Made by a program: the position numbers and the translations under genes | NCBI GenBank assembly: GCA_964349825.1 | Contig: CAYGHM010000002.1 | Location: 620 to 64,619 of the forward strand | DNA length: 64,000 bases | Reading direction: 5' to 3' | DNA from: an uncultured Gammaproteobacteria bacterium | Lineage (GTDB): Bacteria > Patescibacteriota > Patescibacteriia > Magasanikbacterales > UBA922 | Shown here: positions 4,776 through 52,872 of the stretch, piece by piece | How the letters are laid out: each line of letters starts with the position of its first letter | Position numbering within the stretch: the stretch's first letter is position 1 | Notes under the pieces: model-generated | The model's input: only the letters and a program-made list of their open reading frames with translations | Databases searched by the model: none | Told to the model about the DNA's origin: nothing

Positions 4776-5153
4776 ATGTCCTCCCCTTCCCTCAAAATTC
4801 TCCGCATCGGTCTCGGTATTACCTTCCTCTGGCTCGGATACCAAATTTGGATGGAGCCACTCGCATGGGGCAGTTTTATGCTTCCTTGGGCACAAGGGCT
4901 GATCCCTGGATCACTTGAATCATTTATGAAATCTACCGCGATTGGTGATATGTTCCTCGGTCTCTGGCTTATCATCGGCTGGCGCGTCTGGATTCCCGCA
5001 CTCCTTGCATCCCTACACCTCATCGGCGTCCTCGTAACCACGACCGGCAGCCTTGAACTCGCCGTACCCCGCGATATTGGACTATTGGCGGGCACCCTTG
5101 CAATACTGGTAGACACATTACCAACCTGGATAAAAAACAAGATGATCAAGTAA
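4776..5153 (+). CDS. small integral membrane protein (DoxX-like)
   Basis: Four hydrophobic segments, LRIGLGITFLWLGYQIW...LHLIGVLVTTTG; the similarity to DoxX is weak. Confidence 0.4.
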   Translation: MSSPSLKILRIGLGITFLWLGYQIWMEPLAWGSFMLPWAQGLIPGSLESFMKSTAIGDMFLGLWLIIGWRVWIPALLASLHLIGVLVTTTGSLELAVPRDIGLLAGTLAILVDTLPTWIKNKMIK

Positions 5154-5155
5154 AC

Positions 5156-5281
5156 AACATACGAATTACGAATCCTCGAAGACTCGGTACGAATAGCGAA
5201 TAATTAAAAGACGTTCTCCTAAGTAGAGAACGTCTTTTTTAGTTTAATTCGTTATTCGGTATTATTCGTAATTCGCATGTT
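5156..5281. mobile_element. MITE-like repeat copy A: 18-bp terminal inverted repeats flanking an internal terminator hairpin
   Basis: Left TIR aacatacgaattacgaat; right TIR attcgtaattcgcatgtt. The interior holds aaaagacgttctc-ctaagta-gagaacgtctttttt. Homologous copies sit at 15770, 30788 and 44953. Confidence 0.55.
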
Positions 5282-5317
5282 GTCATCTCTGGCAATTCAG
5301 GGACAAAACAGGTAATA

Positions 5318-5346
5318 TTGACAAAAGCAGGCAGTCATGATATACT
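5318..5346 (+). promoter_or_regulatory. sigma70-type promoter TTGACA-N17-TATACT (extended -10 TGa) driving GC-rich cassette 1
   Basis: tatTTGACAaaagcaggcagtcaTGaTATACT. Confidence 0.5.
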
Positions 5347-5517
5347 CACCCGTTCTCAAGATAGTGTATCTGAGGTTCTTTGACAACTGAATACCCTCGT
5401 AGCAGGGAGAAACATGCCCACGGACCCCGTGGCATGAGGTTCAAACCCCCATGCCCATTCGCGGGCATTATGTCACTCTCTGTTACAGAACCATTTCCCC
5501 AACACCACGAGGACACC

Positions 5518-6351
5518 ATGACGACGAAACGTACCCTCATCAGTGTGGCGACGGTCGCCATGCTCGCCCTCATCTCGGCTTCGGCATTCGCTGCCAAGCC
5601 CCCCAAGAAGGTCGCACCCTCGAGTGTGGCCGACAACAAGGAGGAGAAAGTTGCTGCTGAAGCGGCCCTGGAGCACCACTCCAAAGGAAACTTCGACAAA
5701 GCCGGCGCGCTCTACGCGGCCGCCTTCGAGAAGTGGAAGCGTGCCACGCACATCTTCAATGCAGCTCGGTGCTACCACAAAGGGAAGATGTTCGTCCGTG
5801 CAGTTCAGCTGTACAACCAGTATCTGGAACTCGCCGACGCGAGTGAAGAAGGCAAAGCTGAGGCGCGGCAGCATATCGCCGCGATCGAAGCTGAAACCGC
5901 CGTCACTACCCCGACCAAACCAGCCACCAGCAAGGAGCCGCCCACTCCGCAACCAGCAGATCCCACCACAACAACGGTGACGATCACCAAGCCCACGCCA
6001 CCATCGGCTCCAGACCGAATTCTCACCTGGAGCATGATCGGCGGAGGCAGTCTCCTGGCCCTGGCTGGAGCTGGCGGTCTCATCACGGCAGAGGCCAAGA
6101 TGACCGACCTCAACGGCAACGGCATGGACTGGGCCACACCCAATGCCCAAGCGACCTACAAGGACAGTGTCTCGGAGGTCAAAACCCTCCGCACCATGTC
6201 CATGGTGGGCGCCGGTATCGGACTCGCGGCTGCAGGCTGGGGCGTCTACCGGTTCTTTACGGAGCCAGAAGCACCTCCGTCGGGAATGCCGACGGTCCAC
6301 CCAACCATCACCCAGGACGGCGCTCGCGTCGTACTGGAATGGAAACGGTGA
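5518..6351 (+). CDS. GC-rich (about 60%) secreted or membrane-anchored protein: signal peptide, TPR-like helical domain, Pro/Thr-rich linker and two C-terminal TM helices
   Basis: SD GAGGA lies 5 nt before the ATG. The protein reads MTTKRTLISVATVAMLALISASAFA...HIFNAARCYHKGKMFVRAVQLYNQYLE...PTKPATSKEPPTPQPADPTTTTVTITKPTPP...LLALAGAGGLITA. Codon GC3 is far above the background. A GC-rich hairpin terminator follows at 6376-6420. Confidence 0.55.
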   Translation: MTTKRTLISVATVAMLALISASAFAAKPPKKVAPSSVADNKEEKVAAEAALEHHSKGNFDKAGALYAAAFEKWKRATHIFNAARCYHKGKMFVRAVQLYNQYLELADASEEGKAEARQHIAAIEAETAVTTPTKPATSKEPPTPQPADPTTTTVTITKPTPPSAPDRILTWSMIGGGSLLALAGAGGLITAEAKMTDLNGNGMDWATPNAQATYKDSVSEVKTLRTMSMVGAGIGLAAAGWGVYRFFTEPEAPPSGMPTVHPTITQDGARVVLEWKR

Positions 6352-6559
6352 CCAAGACAAAACCAAGGAGCACTGAGTGGGGCGGCAGGCTGGATCATCC
6401 AGACCTCGCCGCCCCACTCGGAGATATACACAGAGAGTGACATACCCAAACAATAATATATAACGCATAATAGGCGTTTTTTTATTTGGTAAATTCTGGT
6501 AAACTAGATAAGAATAGAGAATAGTGAATGAAGAATAAAGAATTTAATATTAATAATAT

Positions 6560-7025: not shown

Positions 7026-7301
7026 TCAGTTTTTTAATTTATTTTCTAATGTGTTTTTCAATACCTTACCCAATGTCTCTCTTCCCCTACCAGTTTTGTA
7101 ATAAGACTCCTGATCCCGAGCATCTTGCTCACTTAAAAAAGATTCAGCGTGAATTAACTGAAGAGGGCGTCTGCCCTTGGTGGATGTATTGAGTCCAGCG
7201 TTATGTTGCTCAATTCTTTTTGATAAATCAGTAGTGTAACCGGTATATAATTTTTTATCTTTTAAACTAAACAAAACGTATACATAATACCACATACACA
7301 C
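7026..7301 (-). CDS. GIY-YIG nuclease-family protein
   Basis: YVYVLFSLKDKKLYTGYTTDLSKRIEQHNAG...GRRPL matches the GIY-YIG motifs. Confidence 0.7.
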   Translation of the reverse strand: MCMWYYVYVLFSLKDKKLYTGYTTDLSKRIEQHNAGLNTSTKGRRPLQLIHAESFLSEQDARDQESYYKTGRGRETLGKVLKNTLENKLKN

Positions 7302-7339: not shown

Positions 7340-7423
7340 TGGGCCGGGCATGATTCGAACATGCGAAGGCGCAAGGCCAGCAGATTTACAGTCTGCCCCG
7401 GTTGACCGCTTCGGTACCGACCC
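7340..7423 (-). tRNA. tRNA-Tyr (GTA), type II with long variable arm
   Basis: The reverse complement GGGTCGGTACCGAAGCGGTCAACCGGGGCAGACTGTAAATCTGC...TGTTCGAATCATGCCCGGCCCA has acceptor, anticodon and T stems that pair, and an anticodon loop CUGUAAA. Confidence 0.75.
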
Positions 7424-7502
7424 ATCTAACTCATTTACAATGACAGCTAGTGATTATTAGTTAACAACGGTTAGTTAGCAATCATTAAATGTCCATTAAT
7501 TG

Positions 7503-7594
7503 TGGGCCGGGCATGATTCGAACTGCGAAGCCCGCCAACGTCGGCGGGCAGCAGATTTACAGTCTGCCCCGGTTGACCGCTTCGGTACCGACCC
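7503..7594 (-). tRNA. tRNA-Tyr (GTA), second copy, with an unusually long GC-rich variable arm
   Basis: Same acceptor, D, anticodon and T arms as copy 1. The variable arm is TGCCCGCCGACGTTGGCGGGCTTCGCA and the total length is about 92 nt. Confidence 0.6.
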
Positions 7595-7688
7595 AAGATC
7601 AATATTCAATTTTCAATTTCTAATTTTTAATTGCATTCCACTTAGCACATAAATGGAAATTGAGAATTGAAAATTGGAAATTTCTAAT

Positions 7689-7764
7689 TGGAGCCAACTC
7701 GGGGATTCGAACCCCGGACCGACGGTTTACAAAACCGTTGCTCTACCAGCTGAGCTAAGTTGGC
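7689..7764 (-). tRNA. tRNA-Thr (TGT), CCA encoded
   Basis: Reverse complement GCCAACTTAGCTCAGCTGGTAGAGCAACGGTTTTGTAAACCGTCGGTCCGGGGTTCGAATCCCCGAGTTGGCTCCA; the acceptor stem is perfectly paired and the anticodon loop is UUUGUAA. Confidence 0.85.
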
Positions 7765-15755: not shown

Positions 15756-15769
15756 AATAGAGACATCAT

Positions 15770-15854
15770 AACATGCGAATTACGAATAATACCGAATTAC
15801 GAATATATATACTTTGGTAATTCGTTATTCGTCCCCATTCGTAATTCGCATGTT
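15770..15854. mobile_element. MITE-like repeat copy B (short, 85 bp) between the GT4 stop and the holB start
   Basis: aacatgcgaattacgaat...attcgtaattcgcatgtt: perfect 18-bp TIRs with an internal ccgaattacgaat/attcgttattcg subrepeat. Confidence 0.55.
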
Positions 15855-21383: not shown

Positions 21384-21412
21384 TTGACAAAAAACAATGT
21401 TCCTGATATGCT
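21384..21412 (+). promoter_or_regulatory. sigma70-type promoter TTGACA-N17-TATGCT for GC-rich cassette 2
   Basis: ttcTTGACAaaaaacaatgttccTGaTATGCT. Confidence 0.45.
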
Positions 21413-21518
21413 CTTCGATTCAGATGGCAGATCCAGGCCTATTGCCTCATGTCTCTGAAAGACAATTAAAAAATGATTCGTGGCATAGTACAAAAAAGGA
21501 GGTACTCTCCCGCGAATC

Positions 21519-22139
21519 ATGTCGAAACGCGGTCATCCTGACTCATTGACCCAGTCCAAGCAAGGATACACCATGTACACCAACCCCAGTGAATCTCTCG
21601 CCCTCATCCTCCGTACCATGGGAGGTATCGCCCTCGTGCGCCCTGCGCTACCTGTCGACAATATCGACGTTGCAAAGTACTTGCGCCAGCGTTGGGCAAT
21701 GACGACGCCATCGGTAGAAATCGTCGTGGCGAACGCCTCGGAAAGCGGTATCGAAATCACGATGGCGGGGATTGTCGGCAGGAGCCCACTCACCGCCTCG
21801 GTGGACATTATGCCGCTCCCGCAGTGGCAACCGATCCAGTCAGCAAGCACCATCCTCGCACGATGGCATTCGCGGATCGACGAACTCATCCTTCGGCTAC
21901 ATCCATCTCCCGTACCGACTGATCGGCTCGTCGCCGTCATCGACGACAAGCAAGCGCTTGTCGAGCTGGCTCGACGGGTGATGTTCGAGCTGAATCTGGA
22001 GATGGACTTCTTGCACAAGGCCAGCGATTTCCTCGACCGGCCTGGTGATGGTCTCATCATCGACCGCCATGGCAATATCACGGACATGCCCGTGATTCCC
22101 CGCTGCCTCAAGCACGAGTCGGTCCTTGCCTTGGGCTAG
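21519..22139 (+). CDS. GC-rich hypothetical protein (no recognisable domain)
   Basis: About 60% GC; a GGAGGT SD lies upstream; MYTNPSES is an alternative start. A terminator hairpin CCCCCGGTATGCTTCATCGCTGCCGGGGG plus T-run follows at about 22255-22290. Confidence 0.45.
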   Translation: MSKRGHPDSLTQSKQGYTMYTNPSESLALILRTMGGIALVRPALPVDNIDVAKYLRQRWAMTTPSVEIVVANASESGIEITMAGIVGRSPLTASVDIMPLPQWQPIQSASTILARWHSRIDELILRLHPSPVPTDRLVAVIDDKQALVELARRVMFELNLEMDFLHKASDFLDRPGDGLIIDRHGNITDMPVIPRCLKHESVLALG

Positions 22140-22328
22140 TAGTACTCTGTACTAGCCCGACCACCGCTCCTTCTTGAGAGTAGTTTCCCAACCCAGTGTC
22201 TTTTTTCCTGCCCTACCCTCCCGACGTAATGTCGGGGACCAAGGCGGACGTTCTACCCCCGGTATGCTTCATCGCTGCCGGGGGTTCGTCATTTTTATGC
22301 TTATTTTAGCGTAAATATGGCAAAAGTA

Positions 22329-22357
22329 TTGACAAAACTGCCGAATTATGATACACT
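22329..22357 (+). promoter_or_regulatory. sigma70-type promoter TTGACA-N17-TACACT (extended TG) for GC-rich cassette 3
   Basis: taTTGACAaaactgccgaattaTGaTACACT. Confidence 0.45.
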
Positions 22358-22571
22358 TTGCCGTTCGGTAAACAATGAAATTACCCCTTTGGGAGACCTT
22401 TCTTGTACCCGATGATCTTTGACAAGAGAATAATGTGTGAAAAATGATTTGTGGGATTTTCAGTTTCTTAGGGAGATTGAAAAACCCACAAATCGACGCA
22501 AGGCGCGTCCGAATGTGGTAACCCCTGCTGATCCGTTAAGTCGGATTGGCCATTGCTCAACGGAGCTCATC

Positions 22572-23186
22572 ATGAACGACTTGCAATTCGTCCTCAGTCG
22601 CGGCAACAAAATCTTCTTCGTCCGCCACAGCCTTGCCGCCCCGGCCGCTGAAGGCCAAGAAGATTTCAACCGTCCACTGACCCAGAAAGGCCGAGAGCTC
22701 GCCAAAAAGACCCGCAAGGAAATCGACCTGAGCAAGGTCGTCTACGTCGCCTACAACCCGGCCATTCGGTGCAAGGAAACGGCCGACGTGCTGATGGACG
22801 GCCTCAAGACGTCGCGTCTCTCCATGCCGCTCGCCTATGGCCTCCACCCGGATTCACCGGGACGGGAGGTGATTTTCCCGGTCTTCCTCCAAATCCGGGA
22901 TTCGTCCCTCGCCGACTACGCCAAACATGGCTGTGCGGAAGCCTTCACGCTGCATGCAACCACGATCCTCGGTTACATCAACAGCGTGTTGAACGACCTG
23001 CCCGAGCTGTACGGCGATCTCATGATCGTCACCCACGGCACCATGGCCGCGGCCCTCGCCCTGCACCTGGGCCAGGCGCTGAAATTCAACACCGATGAGG
23101 TGATGAACTTCAAGCCGACGGAGTGCATGGTGATCACGGTCAGCAAGGACGGCATCACCTGCCACGACTCGCAACTCGTAGACTAA
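22572..23186 (+). CDS. GC-rich histidine-phosphatase-superfamily protein (SixA/PGAM-like)
   Basis: IFFVRHSLAAP (RH-type catalytic motif) and THGTMAAAL. The start was taken at MNDLQF with a GGAG SD; the AT-rich 5-prime extension of ORF 22437.. is probably leader. Confidence 0.5.
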   Translation: MNDLQFVLSRGNKIFFVRHSLAAPAAEGQEDFNRPLTQKGRELAKKTRKEIDLSKVVYVAYNPAIRCKETADVLMDGLKTSRLSMPLAYGLHPDSPGREVIFPVFLQIRDSSLADYAKHGCAEAFTLHATTILGYINSVLNDLPELYGDLMIVTHGTMAAALALHLGQALKFNTDEVMNFKPTECMVITVSKDGITCHDSQLVD

Positions 23187-23314
23187 CGACATCATTAGTC
23201 TGGGTAGATACTCGCCTGACTACAATGATGATTGTTCACACAATCCCCCTCTTGTCGAACACCCCTGGTTGCACATGCACCCAGGGGTTTCGCTTTTTTA
23301 GAGACAAAAAAATA

Positions 23315-23361: not shown

Positions 23362-24786
23362 TTATAGAATAGTAACACATCCATTATTCGCATCGACTTC
23401 AACATACATACCGCTCTCCAATAATTTTGTTGCCACTTTGGTGCCGATCACACATGGCTTTTTCATCTCTCTCGCAATAATTGCTGCATGGCAAGTAATA
23501 CCACCTTCATCAGTGACAAACCCAGCAGCACGTTCCATGGCAGGCACCATATCGGGTGTCGTCATAGCAGCAACAATAATATCGCCAGCTTCAACCAACA
23601 AAAGATCTTTTTTATGTTTAATTTTTTTCACCTTTCCTCTCACGAGACCACGATACGCGACAGCCCCCTTAATTTCCTCTATTTCTTCTGCTTTATGGAG
23701 ATATGTTTCACGCCAAATTACTTCATCCTCTTTTCTGTCTGAGAATTGTACATTCCCCGGTTCAAGAGCGAGTAACGCAAACCAGTCATCACGACGAGAT
23801 TTTACATCTAAACCAATTGTTTTCCACTGAGCAAGTTCATCCGCACGCAAGGCAGAAATTTCCTCAAGTGTCACCCCCATTCGTTTTGCAATTTCTTCCA
23901 AAAGAGGTACGATCCGAGCATACGCGCATGCGAGATAATCGGTACGGCATGTACGAAAATAAACTATCTCTTTGGCAATCGTTACCACATGTCGAATGTC
24001 ATCATCAGCATGCAATGTGTTGAGCAACTCTTTCGACCGCTGTAAATGTATATTTACGTCCTCCTTCATTTCATGAAGTACTTTTTCGCAATCATTTTCC
24101 AATACCTGATTTAATCGCACGCGAACATCAGAAACATCCCACGCTGTACCACTTCCACCACGAATATTTGTCCACCCAAATTCCTGAGCATGGTCTTGTA
24201 AAAGCTGATCTAACTTATCAGATGGATTTTCCAACTCGCCTCGCTGAATCTGAGCGCCAATCTCAAGTAATGCATATTTTTCAACCGTCTGCACATTTAC
24301 CTTTTCAGGAAAACTAATAATTGCCAATTCCTCCTCAAGATCAGCTCTGTTTTTCAAAAAATCACGCAAACGATCTTCTATCGGAAATTGCAGGCCGTAT
24401 CCTGGCAATGTAACCGCAAACGTCTGAAACATTGTGAGAAAATTATCCCACATAGCCATGAGTTCACTGTCTTTTTTCGAAGTAAAATCATTTTTTTCTA
24501 TCTCTTTCGCATACGCAACCATCTTTTCACCATAGGTATATATTGTATCAAATACACCAGCAAGAAATCCCCGCTCCTCGGTTTCTTTTTTGAGTAATTT
24601 TTCAATAAGCTCAAAACTTTCCGGTCCGTACCACCATTCACCATTAAAATATCCGCAAGTAATATACGTATTATCAAGATGATACAGTGTCTTATAATGT
24701 TCAGGCGTTGAAAGTCCCCGAACATAAATGTCCGCAATCAAAACAGTGTATGGACGAGTAACAATAAGATTTAATTTGTTGTGCAT
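23362..24786 (-). CDS. PEP-utilising-enzyme swivel-domain protein, paralog 4 (unique N-terminal domain + C-terminal phosphohistidine domain)
   Basis: The C-terminus GDIIVAAMTTPDMVPAMERAAGFVTDEGGITCHAAIIAREMKKPCVIGT is the PEP-utilisers mobile domain with its catalytic His. Confidence 0.75.
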   Translation of the reverse strand: MHNKLNLIVTRPYTVLIADIYVRGLSTPEHYKTLYHLDNTYITCGYFNGEWWYGPESFELIEKLLKKETEERGFLAGVFDTIYTYGEKMVAYAKEIEKNDFTSKKDSELMAMWDNFLTMFQTFAVTLPGYGLQFPIEDRLRDFLKNRADLEEELAIISFPEKVNVQTVEKYALLEIGAQIQRGELENPSDKLDQLLQDHAQEFGWTNIRGGSGTAWDVSDVRVRLNQVLENDCEKVLHEMKEDVNIHLQRSKELLNTLHADDDIRHVVTIAKEIVYFRTCRTDYLACAYARIVPLLEEIAKRMGVTLEEISALRADELAQWKTIGLDVKSRRDDWFALLALEPGNVQFSDRKEDEVIWRETYLHKAEEIEEIKGAVAYRGLVRGKVKKIKHKKDLLLVEAGDIIVAAMTTPDMVPAMERAAGFVTDEGGITCHAAIIAREMKKPCVIGTKVATKLLESGMYVEVDANNGCVTIL

Positions 24787-24788
24787 AA

Positions 24789-26117
24789 TTAATTTTTAGT
24801 AAGAATGGTAATTTTTCCTATATGCGCATCTACCTCGACCAGGTCTCCGTCCTTCAAAACTTTTGTTCCAATCTTTGTCCCAATGATACACGGCTTATTC
24901 ATCTCTCGAGCGACAATTGCTGCATGCGATGTAATACCACCAATATCAGTGACAAATGCCGCAGCGCGACGCATACCCGTCAAAAAATCAGGTGTTGACA
25001 TGGCAGCGACGAGAATATCACCTTGTTCAATCTTCGCGCATTCTTTTGCATGAAGCACTACTTTTACTTTTCCAACTACTTTCCCCGGCTGCGCGCACAT
25101 CCCGGTGATTTCTGTTGGCCGCTCTTCTGTGCTCTTCACTTGTTCCTCTTTTCCTTCAAATAATTCAACAGCGCTATCAGTAATTTCCAAAATAAAATTA
25201 TTGCGTGTATCAAATTTCGGCTTGATGTACATGCGGCCGTGCAATACATTTTTTACCTCCTCAATGCGCATGTGTAATAATTCATCATACTGCACAATAT
25301 CGGCAAAACATATCATGACCATTTCTCGAAATAAATATGTGCCATAACAATTGGCTTCCCATTTTTCCGTACGCAATCGAAGAAGTTGCTCAGCATACCG
25401 GACAAATGGTGAATCAACTGCTTCCATTTCTTTTTGTTCTTCGGGTGCATGATGAAGACTATCACGAAGCATCACATACGCTTCAATAACGGTCCATGGA
25501 TGGCCTTTAAAATATTTCATCCCGAGGTATCCATATTTTTTACAAAACGTTTGCAGATCTTCTGTAAGAGAACTCGATAATTCATGTAATTCTTTTCCTT
25601 CCGTATCAAGCAATTCATCACGATATCTGTTTGCCAACTCCGTCAACAGCACTGATGCGCGTGTCGTATCTGTCACAGCAGAACGCATCGCATGCGGTGG
25701 AATACCTTGTCTCGTCAATTCAGCGCTCAACCCGGACTCCAAAACAAATCGCGCAATAGATCCGGTAGCTCGCATTGCTTCATCGAAATATTCATCAATA
25801 AGTTCGGGATGCTGACGCGCAGTATGGAGTTCTGTTTCAAATCTTTTTAAAAATGTTTTGAAGCGATCAAAAATAGTTTCAATCTCATGAATAAGATTAG
25901 TATATTGTTCATCCGTAAGAAGTTTCGTTCCCATTTCCGTATACTGCGCCAATGACCAATTGATATCCCCATTAATATGATTGTACTGAATATACGGATA
26001 CTGAAATGAAAAACCTAATTTCGTAAAATCGGTATATGTATAAATACCACTCAATACCAAATCCTGGGTCAATAAATCAGACCGATGGTTGACAATAATT
26101 TCCCAATCTCTTTGCAT
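24789..26117 (-). CDS. PEP-utilising-enzyme swivel-domain protein, paralog 3
   Basis: C-terminal GDILVAAMSTPDFLTGMRRAAAFVTDIGGITSHAAIVAREMNKPCIIGT; the N-terminal ~330 aa are unrelated in sequence to the other paralogs. Confidence 0.75.
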   Translation of the reverse strand: MQRDWEIIVNHRSDLLTQDLVLSGIYTYTDFTKLGFSFQYPYIQYNHINGDINWSLAQYTEMGTKLLTDEQYTNLIHEIETIFDRFKTFLKRFETELHTARQHPELIDEYFDEAMRATGSIARFVLESGLSAELTRQGIPPHAMRSAVTDTTRASVLLTELANRYRDELLDTEGKELHELSSSLTEDLQTFCKKYGYLGMKYFKGHPWTVIEAYVMLRDSLHHAPEEQKEMEAVDSPFVRYAEQLLRLRTEKWEANCYGTYLFREMVMICFADIVQYDELLHMRIEEVKNVLHGRMYIKPKFDTRNNFILEITDSAVELFEGKEEQVKSTEERPTEITGMCAQPGKVVGKVKVVLHAKECAKIEQGDILVAAMSTPDFLTGMRRAAAFVTDIGGITSHAAIVAREMNKPCIIGTKIGTKVLKDGDLVEVDAHIGKITILTKN

Positions 26118-26121
26118 ATAT

Positions 26122-27540
26122 CTACGCTTTAGTCAGCACTTTAATAGTCCCTTTACTCGCATCGACTTCTACTATATCCCCATCTTTCAATATAGTCGTC
26201 GCCACTTTGGTGCCTACAATACAAGGCACACCAAGCTCGCGAGAAACAATCGCCGCATGAGAAGTAAGTCCGCCAGTATCCGTGACAACGGCGCTTGCCT
26301 TTTTCATGATAAAAACATATTCAGGTGTTGTCATGGAAGTAACCAATACATCTCCATCATCAAACCCTACCACATTATGCGGATCAAGCACAATTTTTAC
26401 TTTCCCTGTCACCAGACCCTTTCCTTTACAGGCAATAATACCACTAAAATTTTCAGTACTAGCGTCTACTTGCACATCCACATAAAGTTTCCAGCCGTCG
26501 AGTGTTTCTGATGAGCCCAAAAACTGAACGGTGTTTTCACTTCCGTACACACCAAAAGCTTTCTTTCTCTCATTCGGATCAACAGCGACCGTACGACCAT
26601 TTAGTAGTTCAATAATTTCTGCCCCGGAACAATTCAATAACGTGTTCACATCGAACTGTGGCAAACGCTGTGCTGCCTCAACAAGCAAAATATGCTTATA
26701 ATGCAAATAAATCCAGATATCTTTTTTTCGTGTATCCTGCCATACGATTGCGTCGGTAATCGCTTCTGCAATTGCCATAACTGAATCAGGCAATTTATAT
26801 TCTTCCTGTGTTTCAATTTTTTGCTGACGCACGAGAGCCAATCTTTCCTCTACCTCTTTTCGTATATCCAGAGAAAGTGTTTTTTTTCTTTCTGCAAAAA
26901 ATTCTACTGGCAATACTTCTACATTGGCATAACTATTTCGCAACCAAAAATATTTTTGTTGATGTACAGCAATATCATCCGTCTCGACCAAATCGATTTC
27001 TTCTTCCTGATAAAATGATTTTCCTTCAGGGGCAGTCAATATTTCCATGACATGCATCATCTGTTCTTCTGGAACAAACGGAACAAGCGAACGACGCAAT
27101 ACATCACTTGATCCATAGTTTGATAATTCTGGCAGAATGGCATATACCCAAAATGTCTTCAATAATTTTCCAAAACGTAATAACACATCTTGAAAGGCTT
27201 CGAATGATAAAAGGGACAAGTCAGTAGCGCCAATCTCTTGATTAAGCATGGTAAAATCATGATGTGCCACCATCCACTGTGCGCGAACAGACTCTCGTTT
27301 CTCACGTGGAAGCATCATTTCCAGAAACAGTTTTTCTCCATTTCGCTGCAATGCATCAGCTTCATGCATCCACACCATTCGATTCTCTTTAAATAAAGCT
27401 AAAAAATCTGGCCATCCATATCCAGGAAATTCCTCTGGATAGTCAATAAAAAAAACATCAAAACAATCTGCATAATAAATGTAGAATGGCGTAGGCCCCC
27501 ATTTGAAAATTTCTTTATGTGGATCAAGGTATTGTTTCAT
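26122..27540 (-). CDS. PEP-utilising-enzyme swivel-domain protein, paralog 2
   Basis: C-terminal GDVLVTSMTTPEYVFIMKKASAVVTDTGGLTSHAAIVSRELGVPCIVGT. Confidence 0.75.
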   Translation of the reverse strand: MKQYLDPHKEIFKWGPTPFYIYYADCFDVFFIDYPEEFPGYGWPDFLALFKENRMVWMHEADALQRNGEKLFLEMMLPREKRESVRAQWMVAHHDFTMLNQEIGATDLSLLSFEAFQDVLLRFGKLLKTFWVYAILPELSNYGSSDVLRRSLVPFVPEEQMMHVMEILTAPEGKSFYQEEEIDLVETDDIAVHQQKYFWLRNSYANVEVLPVEFFAERKKTLSLDIRKEVEERLALVRQQKIETQEEYKLPDSVMAIAEAITDAIVWQDTRKKDIWIYLHYKHILLVEAAQRLPQFDVNTLLNCSGAEIIELLNGRTVAVDPNERKKAFGVYGSENTVQFLGSSETLDGWKLYVDVQVDASTENFSGIIACKGKGLVTGKVKIVLDPHNVVGFDDGDVLVTSMTTPEYVFIMKKASAVVTDTGGLTSHAAIVSRELGVPCIVGTKVATTILKDGDIVEVDASKGTIKVLTKA

Positions 27541-27543
27541 AAA

Positions 27544-28548
27544 CTAAGTTATTTTTCTAATAATTCCTCTGTTCGCATCAACCTCAATAATATCTCCATC
27601 TTTCAACAATTGCGTTGCAATCTTCGTTCCAATAACGCAAGGAATCTTCATCTCTCTAGAAACGATAGCGGCGTGACAGAGTAATCCACCCTCATCAGTA
27701 ACAAAGGCTCCGGCCAATTTCATTGCTGGTAAAAAATCCGGAGTTGTCATTGGCGAAACCAAAATATCACCCTGAAGTACTTTTGATAAATCTTCCTTGG
27801 TATACACAATTTTTACCTTTCCTATTACAGTGCCTTTATACCCTATCTGTCCGCTAATTTCTTTTGCATCAACAACGTCATCAGATGTCAATTCAAAGGC
27901 TTTTTCTGTTGCAAGTTTTTCTATACTGAGAGGATAAATATTTGCAGCACAATCCTCCACAAATAGATTGCTTACATCTGAAATTCTAGAAAATTCTATA
28001 TATTCTATTAATTGTTTTACCTGTATAACTTTTACCTGTTCTAAGGGTAACCCGCTTGATACAAGAGATCTTCTTATAAAATCATCAGCGAGGCTCCAAA
28101 GATCATCTCCTTCTCTCTGTTCTTTACTCCAGCTACGTATATCATCCGGCCATTCTTCTGTCATTGAAGAAATAAACATGACGTGATTTGAAAAACGAAG
28201 GTCGTTAAATAGTCGACACATTTCCAAAACGTCTTTTGGATATACATCTTTTTTTTCTGAAAGTTTTCTTATGCTTTCGGCGATTCGTGTATAATCTTTT
28301 TTTGTTTGTTCAAATAATACACTATCAGTAAGTAGGCTATCTTTTATCTTATTATTCCAGTAATCAAACGATTCCTTGTTTAACCAAAATTCAACAACTC
28401 CATTTTTTACATACTTCAGGACCGGACTACTCAACACCGGATCAAAAGAATCAACCAAGGCTTCTGGAAAATGATAAAAACCAGAAGATGCTAGTAAAAA
28501 TGTAATATCTCTGGAATATGTTTTTTCAAAAACAATTTTTTTATTCAC
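27544..28548 (-). CDS. PEP-utilising-enzyme swivel-domain protein, paralog 1 (shortest, 334 aa)
   Basis: C-terminal GDILVSPMTTPDFLPAMKLAGAFVTDEGGLLCHAAIVSREMKIPCVIGT. Confidence 0.75.
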   Translation of the reverse strand: MNKKIVFEKTYSRDITFLLASSGFYHFPEALVDSFDPVLSSPVLKYVKNGVVEFWLNKESFDYWNNKIKDSLLTDSVLFEQTKKDYTRIAESIRKLSEKKDVYPKDVLEMCRLFNDLRFSNHVMFISSMTEEWPDDIRSWSKEQREGDDLWSLADDFIRRSLVSSGLPLEQVKVIQVKQLIEYIEFSRISDVSNLFVEDCAANIYPLSIEKLATEKAFELTSDDVVDAKEISGQIGYKGTVIGKVKIVYTKEDLSKVLQGDILVSPMTTPDFLPAMKLAGAFVTDEGGLLCHAAIVSREMKIPCVIGTKIATQLLKDGDIIEVDANRGIIRKIT

Positions 28549-28638
28549 ACTGTTTGAATCTTATTCAATCAAAATTAAATTACACTTCTCCTTCATCGTA
28601 TTTTACAAATAACTTTCAAATATATTTGGATATAAATT

Positions 28639-29583
28639 TTACCCCAAAGTCGTAATTGGTCGACTCTGCACAACATAAATAGTACTGTTCTGCATTGCCC
28701 ATTCAATATCACAAGGGAAACCATAGTGCTTTTCAATGCGCATAATCACATCCGACAATTCAACAATCTGTCGACCGGATAATTTTTGCACTGCCTTTTT
28801 ATTATCTTCAACATCTACCCATTCATTACCGCCCTCTGACTTTCGTACCATCATGCGTTCCTGATCAGCAATATTAATATCGAGAATATTACGTGGTTCT
28901 TTTTCCAATACATAACTATCTGGCGTAATCTGTCCGGACACCACTGCTTCTCCCAATCCCCAACCCGCTTCGATAATCATTTGATTATAATCTTGTGTTA
29001 CCGGGTGAACAGAAAATGCGATACCAGAAATTTCTGACTGAACCATCACTTGCACCACAACCGCCACTGAGACGTGGGTTTCACTAAATCCTTTTTCAAA
29101 TCGGTAAAAAATCGCACGCGGCGTAAACAATGATGCCCAACAACGACGAACATTCGTAAGTAAATTTTCTTCGTTTGTATTTAAATAACTTTCCAACTGT
29201 CCTGCCCACGCAGCCTCTGCTCCATCTTCTGCTGTCGCACTCGATCGAACCGCGACATATTCAGCATTCAATCCGTGAAATGATTCAATAATTGATTTTC
29301 CCAAATCTTCAGGAAAAGCCACATTCAAAATAAGCGCATGGATCTGCTCAGAAGCGTTTTCAATCGTATGAATTTCTTGAACATTTACCTTGCCTAAAAT
29401 CGCATTGATCTCTACATTCAAATCAGTTTCTTCAATAAAACGATCAAAAGCAGGAGCGGTAACAACAAATCCTGGAGGTACTGGAATGCCTGCTCGAGTC
29501 ATTTCTCCGAGAGAAGCACCCTTTCCTCCGGCAATATCAACATGATCTTTGGAAAGCTCAGTAAAAGGAACTACGTATTGCAT
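28639..29583 (-). CDS. stand-alone ATP-grasp nucleotide-binding domain protein of PEP synthase / pyruvate phosphate dikinase N-terminal type
   Basis: MQYVVPFTELSKDHVDIAGGKGASLGEMTRAGIPVPPGFVVT...AVRSSATAEDGAEAAWAGQ...FSVHPVT...IEWAM is the PPDK_N/PpsA N-terminal signature. It is the first gene of the five-gene operon. Confidence 0.8.
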   Translation of the reverse strand: MQYVVPFTELSKDHVDIAGGKGASLGEMTRAGIPVPPGFVVTAPAFDRFIEETDLNVEINAILGKVNVQEIHTIENASEQIHALILNVAFPEDLGKSIIESFHGLNAEYVAVRSSATAEDGAEAAWAGQLESYLNTNEENLLTNVRRCWASLFTPRAIFYRFEKGFSETHVSVAVVVQVMVQSEISGIAFSVHPVTQDYNQMIIEAGWGLGEAVVSGQITPDSYVLEKEPRNILDINIADQERMMVRKSEGGNEWVDVEDNKKAVQKLSGRQIVELSDVIMRIEKHYGFPCDIEWAMQNSTIYVVQSRPITTLG

Positions 29584-30078: not shown

Positions 30079-30185
30079 AAGAGAATGAAGAATGAAGAAT
30101 AGAGAATAGAGAATAGAGTAAAATGCATTTAATTTATTCTTCATTCTTTATTCTCTGTTCTTAATTCTCTGTTCTTAATTCTCTA
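30079..30185. repeat. GAATAGA/GAATGAA-type long palindrome (family copy 4)
   Basis: aagagaatgaagaatgaagaatagagaatagagaatagag...ttattcttcattctttattctctgttcttaattctctgttcttaattctct. Confidence 0.6.
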
Positions 30186-35426: not shown

Positions 35427-35455
35427 TTGACTCCATACCACATTTCTGGTATAAA
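35427..35455 (+). promoter_or_regulatory. sigma70-type promoter TTGACT-N17-TATAAA for GC-rich cassette 4
   Basis: cgTTGACTccataccacatttctggTATAAAt. Confidence 0.45.
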
Positions 35456-35531: not shown

Positions 35532-36314
35532 ATGAAAACTACCGCCCAAGGCCATTCGATCGTCAATGTTCATGACATGATGCGGCTGATCCGCGAGCAT
35601 GCAGCCACGCACAGGGCGCACGGCTACGCGCCTGTGTTCTGTCTGGACGTGGACGGTCTCCTGATGGACAATCGACACCGGACCCTGGCCATCCTGCGCG
35701 AACTCGTCCTGGAGGCAGACATCCCCTGGTTCACTCAGGCCATGAGCCAGATGACCCTGGAGGATATCGGCTACGGCGCAAAAGAGACGGTTCGGGGCCT
35801 GCATCAGAAATATGGCTTCGATCCCGTCTACACGTCGAAGGTGATGGTCGAGGAACTTGCCAACACGGTCTACAAGTTCTGGTTCGATCGGTTCTTCACC
35901 AACGAGTATCAGGTCCATGATGTCCCCATCATCGGCGCCCTCCGCCTCGTACAGGAGCTTCGAGACGCCGACATCGGCATCGTGTATGTCACAGGCCGGG
36001 ACGAACCGGGCATGGGAGTCGGGTTCCGAAACTCGCTCCAGCAGCATGGCTTCCCTCTCCCCGGCACGGAGGGGGTGCGCGCGATCCTGAAACCCAAATT
36101 CGAGATGAAAGATCCGGAGTTCAAGAAGAACACGCTCGAACTGCTCCAAACGATTGGTATGCGCGTCATTGGCCTCCTCGACGACAACACGCACAACGTG
36201 AACATCGTCGTGGACCTCTGCAACCTGCCCATTCTCTACGTCAGCTCCTCGGTTTCAACACTCACCAACCTCCACCCCGGAGCATTGGTGCTCGAGAGTT
36301 TCACCACCAGCTAG
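35532..36314 (+). CDS. GC-rich HAD-superfamily hydrolase-like protein
   Basis: GAGGA SD before ATG (MKTTAQG); HAD motif I FCLDVDGLLMDN; a later GRDEPG...LDDN. A GC-rich terminator CGCCCGCC...GGCGGG plus T-run follows. Confidence 0.5.
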   Translation: MKTTAQGHSIVNVHDMMRLIREHAATHRAHGYAPVFCLDVDGLLMDNRHRTLAILRELVLEADIPWFTQAMSQMTLEDIGYGAKETVRGLHQKYGFDPVYTSKVMVEELANTVYKFWFDRFFTNEYQVHDVPIIGALRLVQELRDADIGIVYVTGRDEPGMGVGFRNSLQQHGFPLPGTEGVRAILKPKFEMKDPEFKKNTLELLQTIGMRVIGLLDDNTHNVNIVVDLCNLPILYVSSSVSTLTNLHPGALVLESFTTS

Positions 36315-36451
36315 TAAGTGTTCCCGACTGGATGTCGAGACACTTCGCACAAGAGAACGCCCGCCCAGCCTTTTAGGTTGAGGCGGGTTGTTCATTTTTA
36401 TAGACAAAATAAAATATTCTTTTTTAAAGATACGCCAAACAAATCTACTTT

Positions 36452-37635: not shown

Positions 37636-37664
37636 TTGACAAAAAACTCAATTTATGATAAACT
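37636..37664 (+). promoter_or_regulatory. sigma70-type promoter TTGACA-N17-TAAACT (extended TG) for GC-rich cassette 5
   Basis: agtaTTGACAaaaaactcaatttaTGaTAAACT. Confidence 0.45.
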
Positions 37665-37778: not shown

Positions 37779-38159
37779 ATGCGAAAGTGGACTCTCGTCG
37801 TTATCCTCTGGGATCACGGCAGCAGCTACGAAGCGACCACAATGAAGCTGGTGCGGAGGAAGGACGTGGAAGGATACCTGAAATCCGTGACAAAACACGG
37901 GCAAACACAGGCCATCCCGGGGTTCTTCCAACAGCAGAAGGTGGCGTTCCGGACGTTTTCCGAAGCGTTCCCTGGCCACGTCATCCCCCTGAAGGAGGAA
38001 AAGCGTCCCAGCTGGAAAACGCCGCTGGCAATGCTGACACTTTCCGTGGACAGGGAATCAGTGCTGCGACTCGCGGCCATCCTCAAAGACAGGCCAATCG
38101 CTGTCTTCGAGGGTCATCGCCGTCAAGGTGCCCCACCAGTACAACTACTGTGCGTGTAA
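37779..38159 (+). CDS. GC-rich small hypothetical protein (127 aa)
   Basis: GGAGGTG SD 5 nt before the ATG (MRKWTLVVILWDHGSSYEA...); about 58% GC; followed by a chain of hairpins. Confidence 0.45.
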   Translation: MRKWTLVVILWDHGSSYEATTMKLVRRKDVEGYLKSVTKHGQTQAIPGFFQQQKVAFRTFSEAFPGHVIPLKEEKRPSWKTPLAMLTLSVDRESVLRLAAILKDRPIAVFEGHRRQGAPPVQLLCV

Positions 38160-52303: not shown

Positions 52304-52386
52304 CAAAAACAGACAAACAAAAACACCCCTCTTACGGGGTGTTTATTTTTCTAATATGGCCAGCCCTGAAAACACTTGTGGTCATA

Positions 52387-52815
52387 TCAGGGCACTTGGC
52401 CGGGCACCTCCTTGGGGTAGTTGATCGGGCGCAGATAACCGCGCCGGGTGACGTAGTTCGTCAGGTAGCTGCTCGTGTAGCTGAAAAAGACGGGCGACAC
52501 ACACGACATCAGGAGCTCAGGCGAATCATTCCACCAATGGCCTGTGAAACTCATCGCAAACGTGAGCGATCCAGCAGCAAGACTCCCCAAGAAATACGAA
52601 CGAAACGCATTGCGAATGGGAGAAAAATGCTGGACAAGCCGTGCGGATACACCAGTTGACAGGAAGCTCGCACATGCCTGGGCGAAGGCAGCAGAAGTGG
52701 CCAAGCCTACCCCATGCTCCCAATTCACACAACAGGCAATTATTGCCTGAAACACAGCGGCCGCACAAGCGAACTTCAGGTTGAACAGGTTGTGATACAT
52801 CAAACGCCAATTCAC
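52387..52815 (-). CDS. GC-rich small membrane protein (hypothetical), GTG start
   Basis: Minus-strand promoter TTGACG-N18-TATACT (52841-52870), SD GGAGGTGA and a GTG start. Hydrophobic segments AAAVFQAIIACCV and FLGSLAAGSLTFAMSF. About 58% GC. The + strand ORF 52294..52659 was rejected. Confidence 0.4.
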   Translation of the reverse strand: MNWRLMYHNLFNLKFACAAAVFQAIIACCVNWEHGVGLATSAAFAQACASFLSTGVSARLVQHFSPIRNAFRSYFLGSLAAGSLTFAMSFTGHWWNDSPELLMSCVSPVFFSYTSSYLTNYVTRRGYLRPINYPKEVPGQVP

Positions 52816-52872
52816 TCGTCACCTCCACTTTGTCGCTATCAGTATAGGCATGGAAAGGTGTTTACGTCAATA

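What the first reader, a model, noticed from the sequence alone, without database searches (positions are those of the whole stretch)
5318..5346. Shared promoter architecture across the GC-rich cassettes
The promoters of cassettes 1, 2, 3 and 5 read tatTTGACAaaagcaggcagtcaTGaTATACT, tcTTGACAaaaaacaatgttccTGaTATGCT, taTTGACAaaactgccgaattaTGaTACACT and taTTGACAaaaaactcaatttaTGaTAAACT. All have TTGACAAAA, a 17-nt spacer, TGA and an extended -10. Cassettes 4 and 6 have TTGACT/TTGACG variants. Native genes in the window (the rplJ promoter, for example) match the consensus less uniformly. A common promoter module points to a common origin or mechanism for the cassettes, such as an integron-like or phage-like delivery or a deliberate construct, or to an unusually strong housekeeping promoter class in this organism.
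Basis: seen in the sequence. Interest (0 to 1): 0.55.

Follow-up and report, generated by a model that had tools for sequence, protein, structure and literature searches.

The report
Shared promoters on GC-rich gene cassettes
Six small GC-rich genes scattered through an AT-rich, uncultured (CPR) bacterial chromosome each carry their own strong promoter of one special subtype plus a structured leader and a terminator. These are old, fast-evolving residents that stay GC-rich, not recent insertions or an artificial construct.

Summary
TTGACAAAA-N11-TGATAnnCT occurs exactly four times in 64 kb (0.11 expected even with two mismatches), each time upstream of a GC-rich ORF. Cassettes 4 and 6 carry variants. 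Native promoters (rplJ, tRNA, frr, glyS and others) also read TTGACA-17-TATAnT, but 0 of 9 have the TGn extended -10, against 5 of 6 cassettes (p=0.002).

The promoter belongs to a larger module: a structured leader, a GC-rich ORF (GC3 0.64-0.81, host 0.26-0.40) and a terminator. In the C1 and C3 families the leader holds an rrn-boxA-like motif. C2 and the C3 family share a covarying hairpin.

The contig is natural (a Magasanikbacteria relative, several independent assemblies). No integrase, attC site or phage gene is present. C2 sits at the same locus in relatives separated by dS≈1.2, and in a still more distant one, and it remains GC-rich. Promoter elements are conserved there while the spacer randomises. 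Other cassettes are swapped, gained or lost between strains.

The same layout recurs in unrelated AT-rich metagenome contigs.

Best reading: moron-like autonomous expression units whose promoter modules are similar through function and, in part, through common descent. Why they stay GC-rich is unexplained.

The parts
5318..5346 (+). C1 promoter: TTGACA, 17-nt spacer starting AAA, TGA, TATACT
5375..5386 (+). C1 leader, boxA-like motif GTTCTTTGACAA
   Evidence: It matches GYTCTTTAANA (PMC5725501) at 9 of 10 specified positions.
5413..5436 (+). C1 leader hairpin; the leader folds with z = -3.8
5469..5483 (+). C1 leader half of a perfect 15-bp complement with the trailer
   Evidence: 0 of 300 shuffles reach 15; the largest is 11
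5518..6351 (+). C1 ORF, 277 aa, with a predicted N-terminal signal peptide, a weak TPR match and hydrophobic C-terminal segments; GC3 0.72
6430..6444 (+). C1 trailer half of the 15-bp complement
6462..6483 (+). C1 intrinsic terminator
21384..21412 (+). C2 promoter: TTGACA-17-TATGCT with TGA
   Evidence: The -35, TG, -10 and start region are conserved in L005 while the spacer diverges.
21474..21519 (+). C2 leader hairpin, covarying and shared with the C3 family
21573..22139 (+). C2 ORF, 188 aa, no Pfam family; GC3 0.72
22256..22296 (+). C2 terminator CCCCCGG...CCGGGGG plus a T run; the same terminator ends C7 in L007
22329..22357 (+). C3 promoter: TTGACA-17-TACACT with TGA
22413..22425 (+). C3 leader, boxA-like motif TGATCTTTGACAA (11/13 to the E. 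coli rrn boxA plus spacer start)
22446..22494 (+). C3 leader hairpin, 16 bp, 8 pairs with compensatory changes across paralogues
22572..23186 (+). C3 ORF, 204 aa, histidine phosphatase superfamily; GC3 0.81
23190..23259 (+). C3 3'UTR module: a hairpin with conserved loop CTGGGTAG, then a segment complementary to the boxA region of the leader
23260..23299 (+). C3 terminator
35427..35455 (+). C4 promoter: TTGACT-17-TATAAA with TGG. TTGACT and TGGTATAA are conserved in strain L155 while the spacer randomises.
35532..36314 (+). C4 ORF, 260 aa, weak HAD-phosphatase-like matches; GC3 0.78
36358..36399 (+). C4 terminator
37636..37664 (+). C5 promoter: TTGACA-17-TAAACT with TGA
37779..38159 (+). C5 ORF, 126 aa, no family; GC3 0.69; absent in strain L155
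38285..38353 (+). C5 long terminator hairpin plus a T run
52841..52870 (-). C6 promoter: TTGACG-18-TATACT, no in-register TG
52387..52815 (-). C6 ORF, 142 aa, hydrophobic; GC3 0.64
52319..52350 (.). Bidirectional terminator between C6 and the convergent GGACT-family gene

Best explanation
The 29-bp motif is a working sigma-70-type promoter of the extended -10 (TGn) kind. It heads each of six autonomous single-gene transcription units made of a promoter, a structured 5' leader, a Shine-Dalgarno sequence, a GC-rich ORF and an intrinsic terminator. These units lie between housekeeping genes of an AT-rich Magasanikbacteria-like (CPR) chromosome. The promoters resemble one another for two reasons. 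First, function: they are near-consensus promoters whose slightly weaker TAnnCT -10 is backed up by TGn. Second, partial common descent: neighbouring cassettes arose by local duplication, and cargo ORFs are exchanged by recombination inside the conserved 5' and 3' flanks, so the regulatory flanks outlive the cargo. In the C1 and C3/C7 families the leader holds a motif close to the rRNA boxA antiterminator, followed by a stem-loop. This layout resembles a lambda nut site. I infer, without proof, that it recruits NusB/NusE so that transcription of a C-rich, codon-discordant ORF escapes Rho. The cassettes are long-term residents, not fresh insertions. Shown here: the motif, its restriction to cassettes in this window, its evolutionary footprint, the homology of the modules, the hairpin covariation, the cargo turnover and the persistence of GC-richness. 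Inferred: promoter strength, boxA function, and why GC-richness persists.
For: Four exact sites against 0.11 expected. TGn in 5/6 cassettes against 0/9 native promoters, p=0.002. Footprints: in C2 (window against L005, where the flanking gene has dS 1.2) the -35, A-tract, TG, -10 and start region are identical while the middle of the spacer diverges. C4 against L155 shows the same pattern. Every unit has a Shine-Dalgarno sequence and a hairpin plus T-run terminator. The 5' modules of C2, C3, C7 and C3' are homologous (nhmmer E from 1e-31 to 4e-55) and C1 is marginal (E=0.004). The leader hairpin has 16 pairs, 8 of them with compensatory changes; 93.8% of cells pair against 80% in shuffles and 32-45% when the partners are slid. 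Leaders fold with z from -2.0 to -5.3. BoxA-like motifs: C7 matches 12/13, the only match that good in 2.09 Mb of held sequence; C3 matches 11/13; 2 of the 3 exact TCTTTGACAA copies in the window lie in cassette leaders. Cassette ORFs are C-rich (0.27-0.34 against 0.18 in host genes). Cargo turnover: flanking genes are 95-96% identical between strains while C3 against C3' is 56% (dS 1.03 against 0.10-0.17 in the flanks). Identity is 87-95% over the promoter and boxA region, 30-55% in the distal leader, 45-80% in the ORF and 82-100% from the ORF's 3' end onward. C7 is present only in L007, and C5 is absent in L155. Persistence: C2 orthologues have dS 1.07 with GC3 0.72 and 0.80. A 38%-identical homologue sits at the same locus in a more distant relative with GC3 0.76. 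Generality: a 2-kb stretch of L110 carries three tandem GC-rich ORFs, the first two with conserved 5' and 3' modules (GC3 0.90-0.91). GC jumps of at least 0.15 follow 14.5% of pattern hits against 1.7% of random positions. Five of 7 independently found GC islands have a TTGAC...TGnTAnnnT site upstream.
Against: No transcription data exist, so start sites and strength are unverified. Only 64 kb of this genome could be examined, so a genome-wide restriction of the TGn subtype to cassettes is untested. The native promoter set is small (9). C4, C5 and C6 show no detectable homology to the other modules beyond generic promoter elements. C6 has no in-register TG and only a 26-nt leader. The boxA call rests on a 10-13-nt motif and could not be compared with this organism's own rRNA leader. 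The shorter TCTCTTA motif seen in the C4 and C5 leaders also occurs in native leaders, so it is not diagnostic. The same promoter pattern precedes many ordinary genes in other organisms. The covariation rests on five sequences from two related families.
Confidence: 0.65

Rival explanations
1. Integron-like or other site-specific cassette capture: TTGACAAAA(C) is the core of a recombination site that happens to double as a -35 element, and cassettes are inserted and excised there.
For: In strain L007 the extra cassette C7 is bounded exactly by direct repeats of TTGACAAAAC. The sequence upstream of the first copy equals the window's C3 upstream flank, and the sequence after the second copy equals the window's C3 promoter. 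Cassette content varies between strains.
Against: No integrase, transposase or reverse transcriptase is in the window or in the 1.2 kb upstream. No attC-like shared palindrome was seen, and the 3' ends are ordinary terminators. Each cassette has its own promoter. The cassettes lie at five dispersed loci. There is one junction only, and it is equally explained by unequal crossing-over or deletion between two tandem paralogous promoters. C7 and C3 are paralogues with homologous leaders and 3'UTRs throughout. The conservation pattern (-35, TG and -10 kept, spacer free) is that of a promoter.
Confidence: 0.07
2. Recent horizontal acquisition, as phage morons or islets from GC-rich donors: the promoters travelled with the genes or were supplied by a phage.
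For: The layout (own promoter, one gene, terminator, deviant GC, variable presence) is that of a phage moron (PMC3594210). C3, C7 and C4 give weak PHROG hits. C4 has 32%-identical homologues in a Myxococcus and in an ordinary 50%-GC contig. A phage family in IMG/VR carries a very similar promoter.
Against: The flanks are housekeeping genes and there are no phage genes. C2 shows the same synonymous divergence as its flanking host gene and keeps its locus in a distant relative, yet it is still GC-rich. That is the opposite of a recent arrival being ameliorated. The C2 family has only 4 cluster representatives among 1.84 billion, and C3 finds only itself among 5.8 billion proteins, so no sequenced donor is evident. 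The phage promoters are not followed by GC-rich genes.
Confidence: 0.1
3. Nothing special: this is simply the organism's generic strong promoter, and the resemblance among cassettes is what any set of good promoters would show.
For: Native promoters are also TTGACA-17-TATAnT. An A/T tract next to the -35 and TGn are generic promoter elements (PMC12641261).
Against: Within the window, TGn (p=0.002) and the CT-ending -10 (p=0.011) separate cassette promoters from native ones. Homology extends well beyond the promoter for C2, C3 and C7, and marginally for C1. The pattern is enriched about 8-fold before upward GC jumps in other contigs.
Confidence: 0.13
4. A shared regulator: the conserved TGATA and A-tract are an operator, so the cassettes form one regulon.
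For: TGATA is identical in four promoters, and the start region (G/A)TTC is shared by C1, C2, C3 and C7.
Against: There is no dyad or repeat symmetry. TGA becomes TGC in C7 and in the L005 C2 orthologue with no other change, as expected for TGn and not for a specific operator. No candidate regulator gene is nearby.
Confidence: 0.04
5. Assembly chimera or engineered construct.
For: Sharp GC boundaries and textbook promoter and terminator design.
Against: The same junctions are recovered in independent assemblies from different runs (ENA ERZ27247837, ERZ27247828 and ERZ27247817; Logan ERR3094302, SRR22388088 and others), and diverged orthologues occupy the same loci.
Confidence: 0.01

Closest known systems
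Phage morons (autonomous promoter-gene-terminator units, Hendrix/Juhala; review PMC3594210)
   Same: A single gene with its own sigma-70 promoter and intrinsic terminator, inserted between unrelated genes. Base composition differs from the neighbours, and presence varies between related genomes.
   Different: These units sit among housekeeping genes of a CPR chromosome, not in a prophage. At least one has been vertically inherited over dS>1 while staying GC-rich. The 5' and 3' untranslated modules are conserved between different cargos.
Extended -10 (TGn) sigma-70 promoters
   Same: TTGACA, a 17-nt spacer, TG at -15/-14, and a TAnnnT -10.
   Different: Nothing unusual in the promoter chemistry. 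What is unusual is that the subtype is confined to the GC-rich units in this window.
BoxA/Nus-factor antitermination outside rRNA (suhB leader, PMC5725501; CRISPR arrays, PMC7665894) and lambda nut sites (PMC2724277)
   Same: A boxA-like motif (TGATCTTTAACAA in C7 against TGCTCTTTAACAA in E. coli rrn) sits in a 5' leader and is followed by a spacer and a stem-loop. It lies upstream of RNA that should be prone to Rho termination.
   Different: Here it precedes short protein-coding genes in a CPR bacterium. It is clear only in the C1 and C3/C7 families. Function is untested, and this organism's own rRNA boxA is unknown.
Integron gene cassettes
   Same: Small, mostly single-gene modules of unknown function, sometimes in tandem, with variable content between strains.
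   Different: No integrase and no attC. Every unit has a promoter and a terminator, and the units are dispersed, not in one array at attI.
Variable lipoprotein gene families of Mycoplasma (vsp/vlp) with conserved 5' regions (from memory, not checked here)
   Same: Fast-evolving, often secreted or membrane proteins, with a conserved promoter and 5' region shared by paralogues, in a small-genome AT-rich bacterium.
   Different: No sign of phase-variable tracts or invertible elements. The cargos are unrelated to each other and include enzymes. The strong GC-richness has no counterpart.

Membership tests
Sigma-70 promoter with extended -10 | -35 hexamer close to TTGACA and -10 TAnnnT, separated by 16-18 nt | tested here: met
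   6/6 cassettes; 17 nt in five and 18 nt in C6
Sigma-70 promoter with extended -10 | TG one base upstream of the -10 hexamer | tested here: met
   C1, C2, C3 and C5 have TGA and C4 has TGG. C6 does not. C7 and the L005 C2 orthologue have TGC.
Sigma-70 promoter with extended -10 | Elements conserved in evolution while the spacer sequence drifts | tested here: met
   C2 window against L005, and C4 window against L155
Sigma-70 promoter with extended -10 | Transcription starts 6-8 nt downstream of the -10 | not testable with these tools
   No transcriptome or 5'-end data
Integron cassette array | IntI tyrosine recombinase next to the array | tested here: not met
   No recombinase domain in any window gene
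Integron cassette array | attC recombination site at the 3' end of each cassette | tested here: not met
   The 3' ends are terminator hairpins. Shared 3' sequence is limited to the C3/C7 family and one terminator.
Integron cassette array | Mostly promoterless cassettes read from a common Pc | tested here: not met
   Every cassette has its own promoter
Phage moron | Own promoter and own terminator around one gene, with deviant base composition | tested here: met
Phage moron | Located within a phage or prophage genome | tested here: not met
   The flanks are fur/znuABC, bcp, a glycosyltransferase, PEP-utilizer genes, a tRNA, rplJL, tsaD and glmM-like genes
BoxA (NusB/NusE) antitermination site | Sequence match to the boxA consensus (GYTCTTTAANA; rrn UGCUCUUUA plus ACAA) | tested here: inconclusive
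   C7 12/13, C3 11/13, C1 10/13. Only one 12/13 match exists in 2.09 Mb of held sequence. C2, C4, C5 and C6 have no convincing match.
BoxA (NusB/NusE) antitermination site | Lies in the transcribed leader, downstream of the promoter | tested here: met
   29 nt (C1) and 56 nt (C3) after the -10
BoxA (NusB/NusE) antitermination site | Same motif in the organism's own rRNA leader; nusB, nusE and rho present | not testable with these tools
   No rRNA operon in the window or in any fetched locus.
Recently acquired genomic islet (HGT) | Absent from close relatives, or closer homologues in another lineage | tested here: not met
   C2 is syntenic in L005 (dS 1.07, flank 1.20) and in L162. The C2 family has 4 representatives among 1.84 billion. 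The best outside hit for C4 is 32%. C5 and C7 do vary between strains.

The most novel reading that the evidence does not exclude
AT-rich CPR bacteria maintain a dedicated class of gene. These are single-gene expression cassettes with portable, near-universal bacterial expression signals (a consensus promoter, in some an rrn-type antiterminator, and a terminator) and conserved untranslated flanks that act as recombination handles. Their fast-evolving cargos are actively kept at GC3 0.7-0.9 for a long time. The cause could be GC-biased gene conversion at recombination hotspots, selection on mRNA stability or translation rate, or, most speculatively, that the units are tuned for expression in a GC-rich partner cell. 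The shared promoter would then be the visible signature of an undescribed genome-organisation principle.
Probability: 0.15. Interest if true: 0.85.

Novelty: new variant of a known kind. Interest (0 to 1): 0.6.

Why it matters
If the picture holds, compositional outliers in CPR genomes are not simply recent horizontal transfers. GC-richness can be a stable property of a gene class that has its own regulatory packaging. This affects how HGT is inferred from composition. It also affects gene calling in these genomes: several cassettes were called on the wrong strand or frame in public annotations. It offers candidate promoter, leader and terminator parts for organisms that have no genetics. The boxA-like leaders would extend Nus-factor antitermination to ordinary protein-coding genes in a deep-branching, uncultured lineage. 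The persistence of GC3 near 0.8 in a 40% GC genome gives a natural test case for the debate between selection and biased gene conversion.

Tried and rejected
1. My first two pattern searches used the wrong spacer length and found nothing. This was corrected.
2. Rfam at gathering threshold on the window and on 20 metagenome loci, and at E≤1 on the cassette regions, found no family for the leaders or 3'UTRs and no rRNA behind these promoters. A search for 16S 5' ends in all loci found none.
3. PADLOC gave no defence-system hits. PHROGs gave only weak domain-level hits.
4. The one GTDB relative found (L004, Magasanikbacteria, 70% aa identity) has different synteny and no GC islands, so it did not help.
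5. RNAduplex energies for leader-trailer pairing did not discriminate. A longest-helix test was significant only for C1. The C3/C7 leader-trailer pairing rests on two compensatory changes that I read by eye, and it is only suggestive.
6. TCTCTTA as a lambda-type boxA in C4 and C5 was rejected as diagnostic, because it also occurs in native leaders.
7. BoxA-like motifs are not a general feature of GC-rich cassettes in other contigs (5 of 114 leaders).
8. AlphaFold2 on C2 with a 3-sequence alignment gave pLDDT 56, too low for a fold search.
9. Three attempts to extend the genome beyond the window's right end by exact-protein look-up failed.
10. Literature searches for a prior description of GC-rich cassettes in CPR found nothing relevant. 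A literal-sequence search for boxA variants was uninformative.
Full report
**1. The observation**

The sequence at 5318-5346 reads TTGACAAAAGCAGGCAGTCATGATATACT. A regular-expression scan of both strands finds exactly four sites of the form TTGAC-N15-17-TGnTAnn[AC]T. They lie at 5318, 21384, 22329 and 37636, all on the + strand. The tighter pattern TTGACAAAA-N11-TGATANNCT gives the same four exact hits. Even with two mismatches allowed it adds only one intragenic hit, against 0.11 expected from dinucleotide shuffles.

Each site lies 105-215 nt upstream of an ORF that has a Shine-Dalgarno sequence and GC3 of 0.69-0.81. Host genes have GC3 of 0.26-0.40.

- Cassette 4 has TTGACT-17-TATAAA preceded by TGG, at 35427-35455.
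- Cassette 6 has TTGACG-18-TATACT at 52841-52870 on the - strand.

**2. Native promoters compared with cassette promoters**

Intergenic, correctly oriented native sites include:

- the tRNA promoter, TTGACA-17-TATAAT (12/12);
- rplJ, TTGACA-17-TATTAT;
- frr, TTGACA-17-TATATT;
- glyS, TTGACA-17-TATAGT;
- the fur operon, TTGACA-17-TAAAAT.

What separates the two classes is:

- the TGn extended -10 (5/6 cassettes against 0/9 native, Fisher p=0.002);
- a -10 ending in CT (5/6 against 1/9, p=0.011);
- more weakly, AAA after the -35 (4/6 against 1/9, p=0.09).

An A/T tract next to the -35 and the extended -10 are both generic promoter elements (PMC12641261). The chemistry is therefore ordinary. The distribution is what is unusual.

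**3. Provenance**

The cassettes are natural.

- C1 lies in the same context on ENA contig ERZ27247837 k141_1311014 (59 kb) and on a Logan contig. C3 lies on an ENA contig from another sample. C4 and its neighbours lie on further ENA and Logan contigs.
- The nearest species-level genome is a Candidatus Magasanikbacteria MAG, at 70% amino-acid identity for one membrane protein.
- The window's other genes are housekeeping: znuABC-fur, bcp, tpiA, glyS, frr, holB, PEP-utilizer paralogues, rplJL, tsaD, dnaE, pheST, rseP, clpB and others.
- None has an integrase, transposase or reverse-transcriptase domain.

**4. Anatomy of a cassette**

Each unit consists of a promoter, a leader of 26-215 nt, a Shine-Dalgarno sequence, a GC-rich ORF, and a GC-rich hairpin followed by a T run. 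The leaders fold significantly better than shuffles, with z of -3.8, -3.1, -5.3, -2.6, -2.0 and -4.0 for C1-C5 and C7. No Rfam family matches them.

The cargos are unrelated to one another:

- C1: a probable secreted or membrane protein with a weak TPR match;
- C3: a histidine phosphatase;
- C4: a protein with weak HAD-phosphatase-like matches;
- C6: a hydrophobic protein;
- C2 and C5: two proteins with no family.

None matches a defence-system model, and the PHROG matches are weak.

**5. The promoter is part of a homologous 5' module, in part**

An alignment from promoter to start codon of C2, C3, the L005 orthologue of C2 and two cassettes from strain L007 is clearly homologous. A profile built from it finds C2, C3, C7 and C3' with E from 1e-31 to 4e-55. 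It finds C1 from the promoter through position 94 with E=0.004, and C5 only over the promoter (E=1.1).

Within this module a 16-bp hairpin shows 8 pairs with compensatory changes. In it 93.8% of cells are paired, against 80% in shuffles and 32-45% when the partners are slid. The G-U pairs fall on the sense strand, which favours an RNA structure.

The 3' ends of C3, C3' and C7 are also homologous, with a hairpin carrying the conserved loop CTGGGTAG. C2 and C7 end in the same terminator.

**6. A boxA-like element**

The leaders of C1 (5375-5386, GTTCTTTGACAA), C3 (22413-22425, TGATCTTTGACAA) and C7 (TGATCTTTAACAA) resemble the rRNA antiterminator boxA. The reference sequences are the E. coli rrn UGCUCUUUA followed by ACAA (PMC2724277) and the consensus GYTCTTTAANA (PMC5725501).

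- Matches of 11/13 occur about once per 50 kb.
- Two of the three exact TCTTTGACAA copies in the window are in cassette leaders.
- The motif is followed by a stem-loop, after about 20 nt in C3 and C7 and about 26 nt in C1. The order boxA, spacer, stem-loop is that of a lambda nut site (PMC2724277).
- BoxA elements outside rRNA are known upstream of suhB and of CRISPR arrays, where they protect transcripts from Rho (PMC5725501, PMC7665894).
- The cassette ORFs are C-rich (0.27-0.34 C against 0.18 in host genes) and use codons that are rare for this host.

A plausible function is therefore Rho-resistant transcription of poorly coupled messages. This is inference. The organism's own rRNA leader was not available. 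C2, C4, C5 and C6 have no convincing boxA. The shorter TCTCTTA motif also occurs in native leaders.

**7. Leader-trailer complementarity**

C1 has a perfect 15-bp complement between its leader (5469-5483) and its trailer (6430-6444). None of 300 shuffles reaches 15, and the largest is 11.

In C3 and C7 the 3' half of the boxA region can pair with the trailer just before the terminator. Two positions change on both sides between the paralogues (GACAAGAG with CTCTTGTC against AACAAGTG with CACTTGTT). I read this, and it is only suggestive. The other cassettes show nothing significant.

Whether these are RNA panhandles or DNA inverted repeats cannot be decided here.

**8. Evolution: residents, not arrivals**

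*Window against L005.* The flanking glycosyltransferase is 95% identical, with dS 1.20 and dN 0.035. The C2 orthologue at the same position has dS 1.07 and dN 0.32, with GC3 of 0.72 and 0.80. A 38%-identical homologue lies between the same two genes in a still more distant relative (L162). There the visible end of the flanking PEP-utilizer protein is roughly 60% identical, by my count from the sequences printed. That homologue has GC3 0.76 next to a 37% GC flank. So C2 has been inherited with the chromosome through more than one synonymous substitution per site without drifting towards host composition.

Across the same divergence the -35, the A-tract, TG, the -10 and the start region of its promoter are unchanged, while most positions in the middle of the spacer differ. 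C4 shows the same footprint against strain L155. This is the best evidence available here that the motif is a selected, working promoter.

**9. Evolution: turnover**

*Window against L007.* The flanking genes have dS of 0.10-0.17 and C2 has 0.07, but C3 against C3' has dS 1.03 and 56% amino-acid identity. Identity is 87-95% over 22338-22457 (promoter and boxA), 30-55% in the distal leader, 45-80% in the ORF, and 82-100% from 23121 onward. The cargo has therefore been replaced by recombination inside conserved flanks, or different paralogues were retained.

L007 also carries an extra histidine-phosphatase cassette, C7, which is 27-29% identical to C3. C7 is bounded by direct repeats of TTGACAAAAC. 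Strain L155 lacks the membrane-protein gene and C5.

The single TTGACAAAAC junction fits unequal exchange between tandem paralogous promoters at least as well as site-specific insertion.

**10. How rare the cargos are**

The C2 family has two homologues among 5.8 billion clustered proteins and four representatives among 1.84 billion. C3 finds only itself. The best outside relatives of C4 are 32% identical, in a Myxococcus and in an ordinary 50%-GC contig.

Public gene calls often place these cassettes on the wrong strand or frame (L007, L150, L151). They are therefore under-represented in protein databases.

**11. Generality**

Most hits are ordinary promoters. However:

- 34% are followed by a GC rise of at least 0.10 and 14.5% by at least 0.15, against 4.5% and 1.7% at random positions in the same contigs.
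- None of these promoters drives an rRNA gene.
- L110, whose background is about 36% GC, carries three tandem GC-rich ORFs. The first two (GC3 0.90-0.91) have nearly identical promoters and about 130-nt leaders, and one 3' module closes the preceding unit and both of these. The third ORF has a related promoter but ends in different sequence.
- L062, L050, L098, L012 and others show single units of the same kind.
- Among GC islands in AT-rich contigs that were not selected by the pattern, 5 of 7 have a TTGAC...TGnTAnnnT site within 350 nt upstream.
- Viral contigs gave 22 hits, mostly one phage family with a very similar promoter, but none is followed by a GC jump.
- BoxA-like motifs are not general in these other leaders.

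**12. Verdict**

The shared architecture is real. It marks functional extended -10 promoters that belong to autonomous, moron-like expression units. The similarity comes from function, plus demonstrable common descent for C2, C3 and C7, possible common descent for C1, and unproven descent for C4-C6.

Integron-like capture, phage delivery, a synthetic construct and 'just the housekeeping promoter' are each contradicted by at least one direct test.

The most surprising result lies outside the original finding. The cassettes are old, hypervariable, and remain GC-rich. The same design recurs in unrelated AT-rich metagenome contigs. Three full-text literature searches found no description of it.

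Noticed in passing
window 5150-5300; also 15761-15854, 2549-2584, 6500-6550, 30133-30163: Short repeated intergenic motifs of the type cgaattacgaat or agaatagagaata. Around 5160-5290 they form a long imperfect palindrome enclosing the terminator hairpin at 5206-5240. Copies elsewhere match at 86-91%. They may be REP- or MITE-like elements.
   Followed up: no
window 57501-58000, inside ORF 57299-58435: Extreme AT skew (+0.615) in a 378-aa ORF with no Pfam family, probably a low-complexity A-rich coding region.
   Followed up: no
window 7026-7301 (-); L062 about 1190-1480: A small GIY-YIG (UPF0213-like) gene lies close to cassette C1, and an apparently similar one (judged from its translated sequence, not tested) lies next to a GC-rich cassette in the unrelated contig L062. 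This may be coincidence or a link to cassette mobility.
   Followed up: no
L007 1194-1943 and 2533-2949; L150 5686-6336; L151 1416-2102: Public gene calls put GC-rich cassettes on the wrong strand or frame, so these proteins are missing or garbled in protein databases.
   Followed up: partly
L001 149-526 and 569-1876 (about 0.7-1.1 kb upstream of the window start, running into its first 666 bases): A 23S_rRNA_IVP/bAvd-like gene sits next to a Y-family polymerase gene. bAvd is a diversity-generating retroelement accessory protein. No reverse transcriptase was seen nearby.
   Followed up: no
window 23362-29583 (-): Four consecutive paralogous PEP-utilizer-domain genes (474, 442, 472 and 334 aa) plus a PPDK_N gene, an unusual tandem array.
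   Followed up: no
window 4776-5153 (+): A DoxX-like gene of intermediate composition (GC 0.52, GC3 0.57). It has TGaTAAAAT, an extended -10 with a poor -35, and TTCTCTTAATC in its short leader. It could be an older or partly ameliorated member of the cassette class.
   Followed up: partly
L128, L130, L131, L133, L134, L137-L140, L142-L146, L149 (IMG/VR) and L018: One phage family carries a near-identical promoter, ctaTTGACAAAAACTACTATTCATGATACACTTAAAGGTTCC, which resembles the C3 promoter beyond the searched positions. No GC jump follows it.
   Followed up: no
window 34565-34701 (-): A ribosomal protein L10 leader (RF00557, 50.3 bits) lies upstream of rplJ. tRNAs lie at 7340-7764 and 35284-35355.
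   Followed up: no
L094 248-293; L096 about 777: In two unrelated contigs the same promoter type is followed at once by a boxA-like TGTTCTTTGACAA or TATTCTTTAACAA. What they drive was not examined.
   Followed up: no
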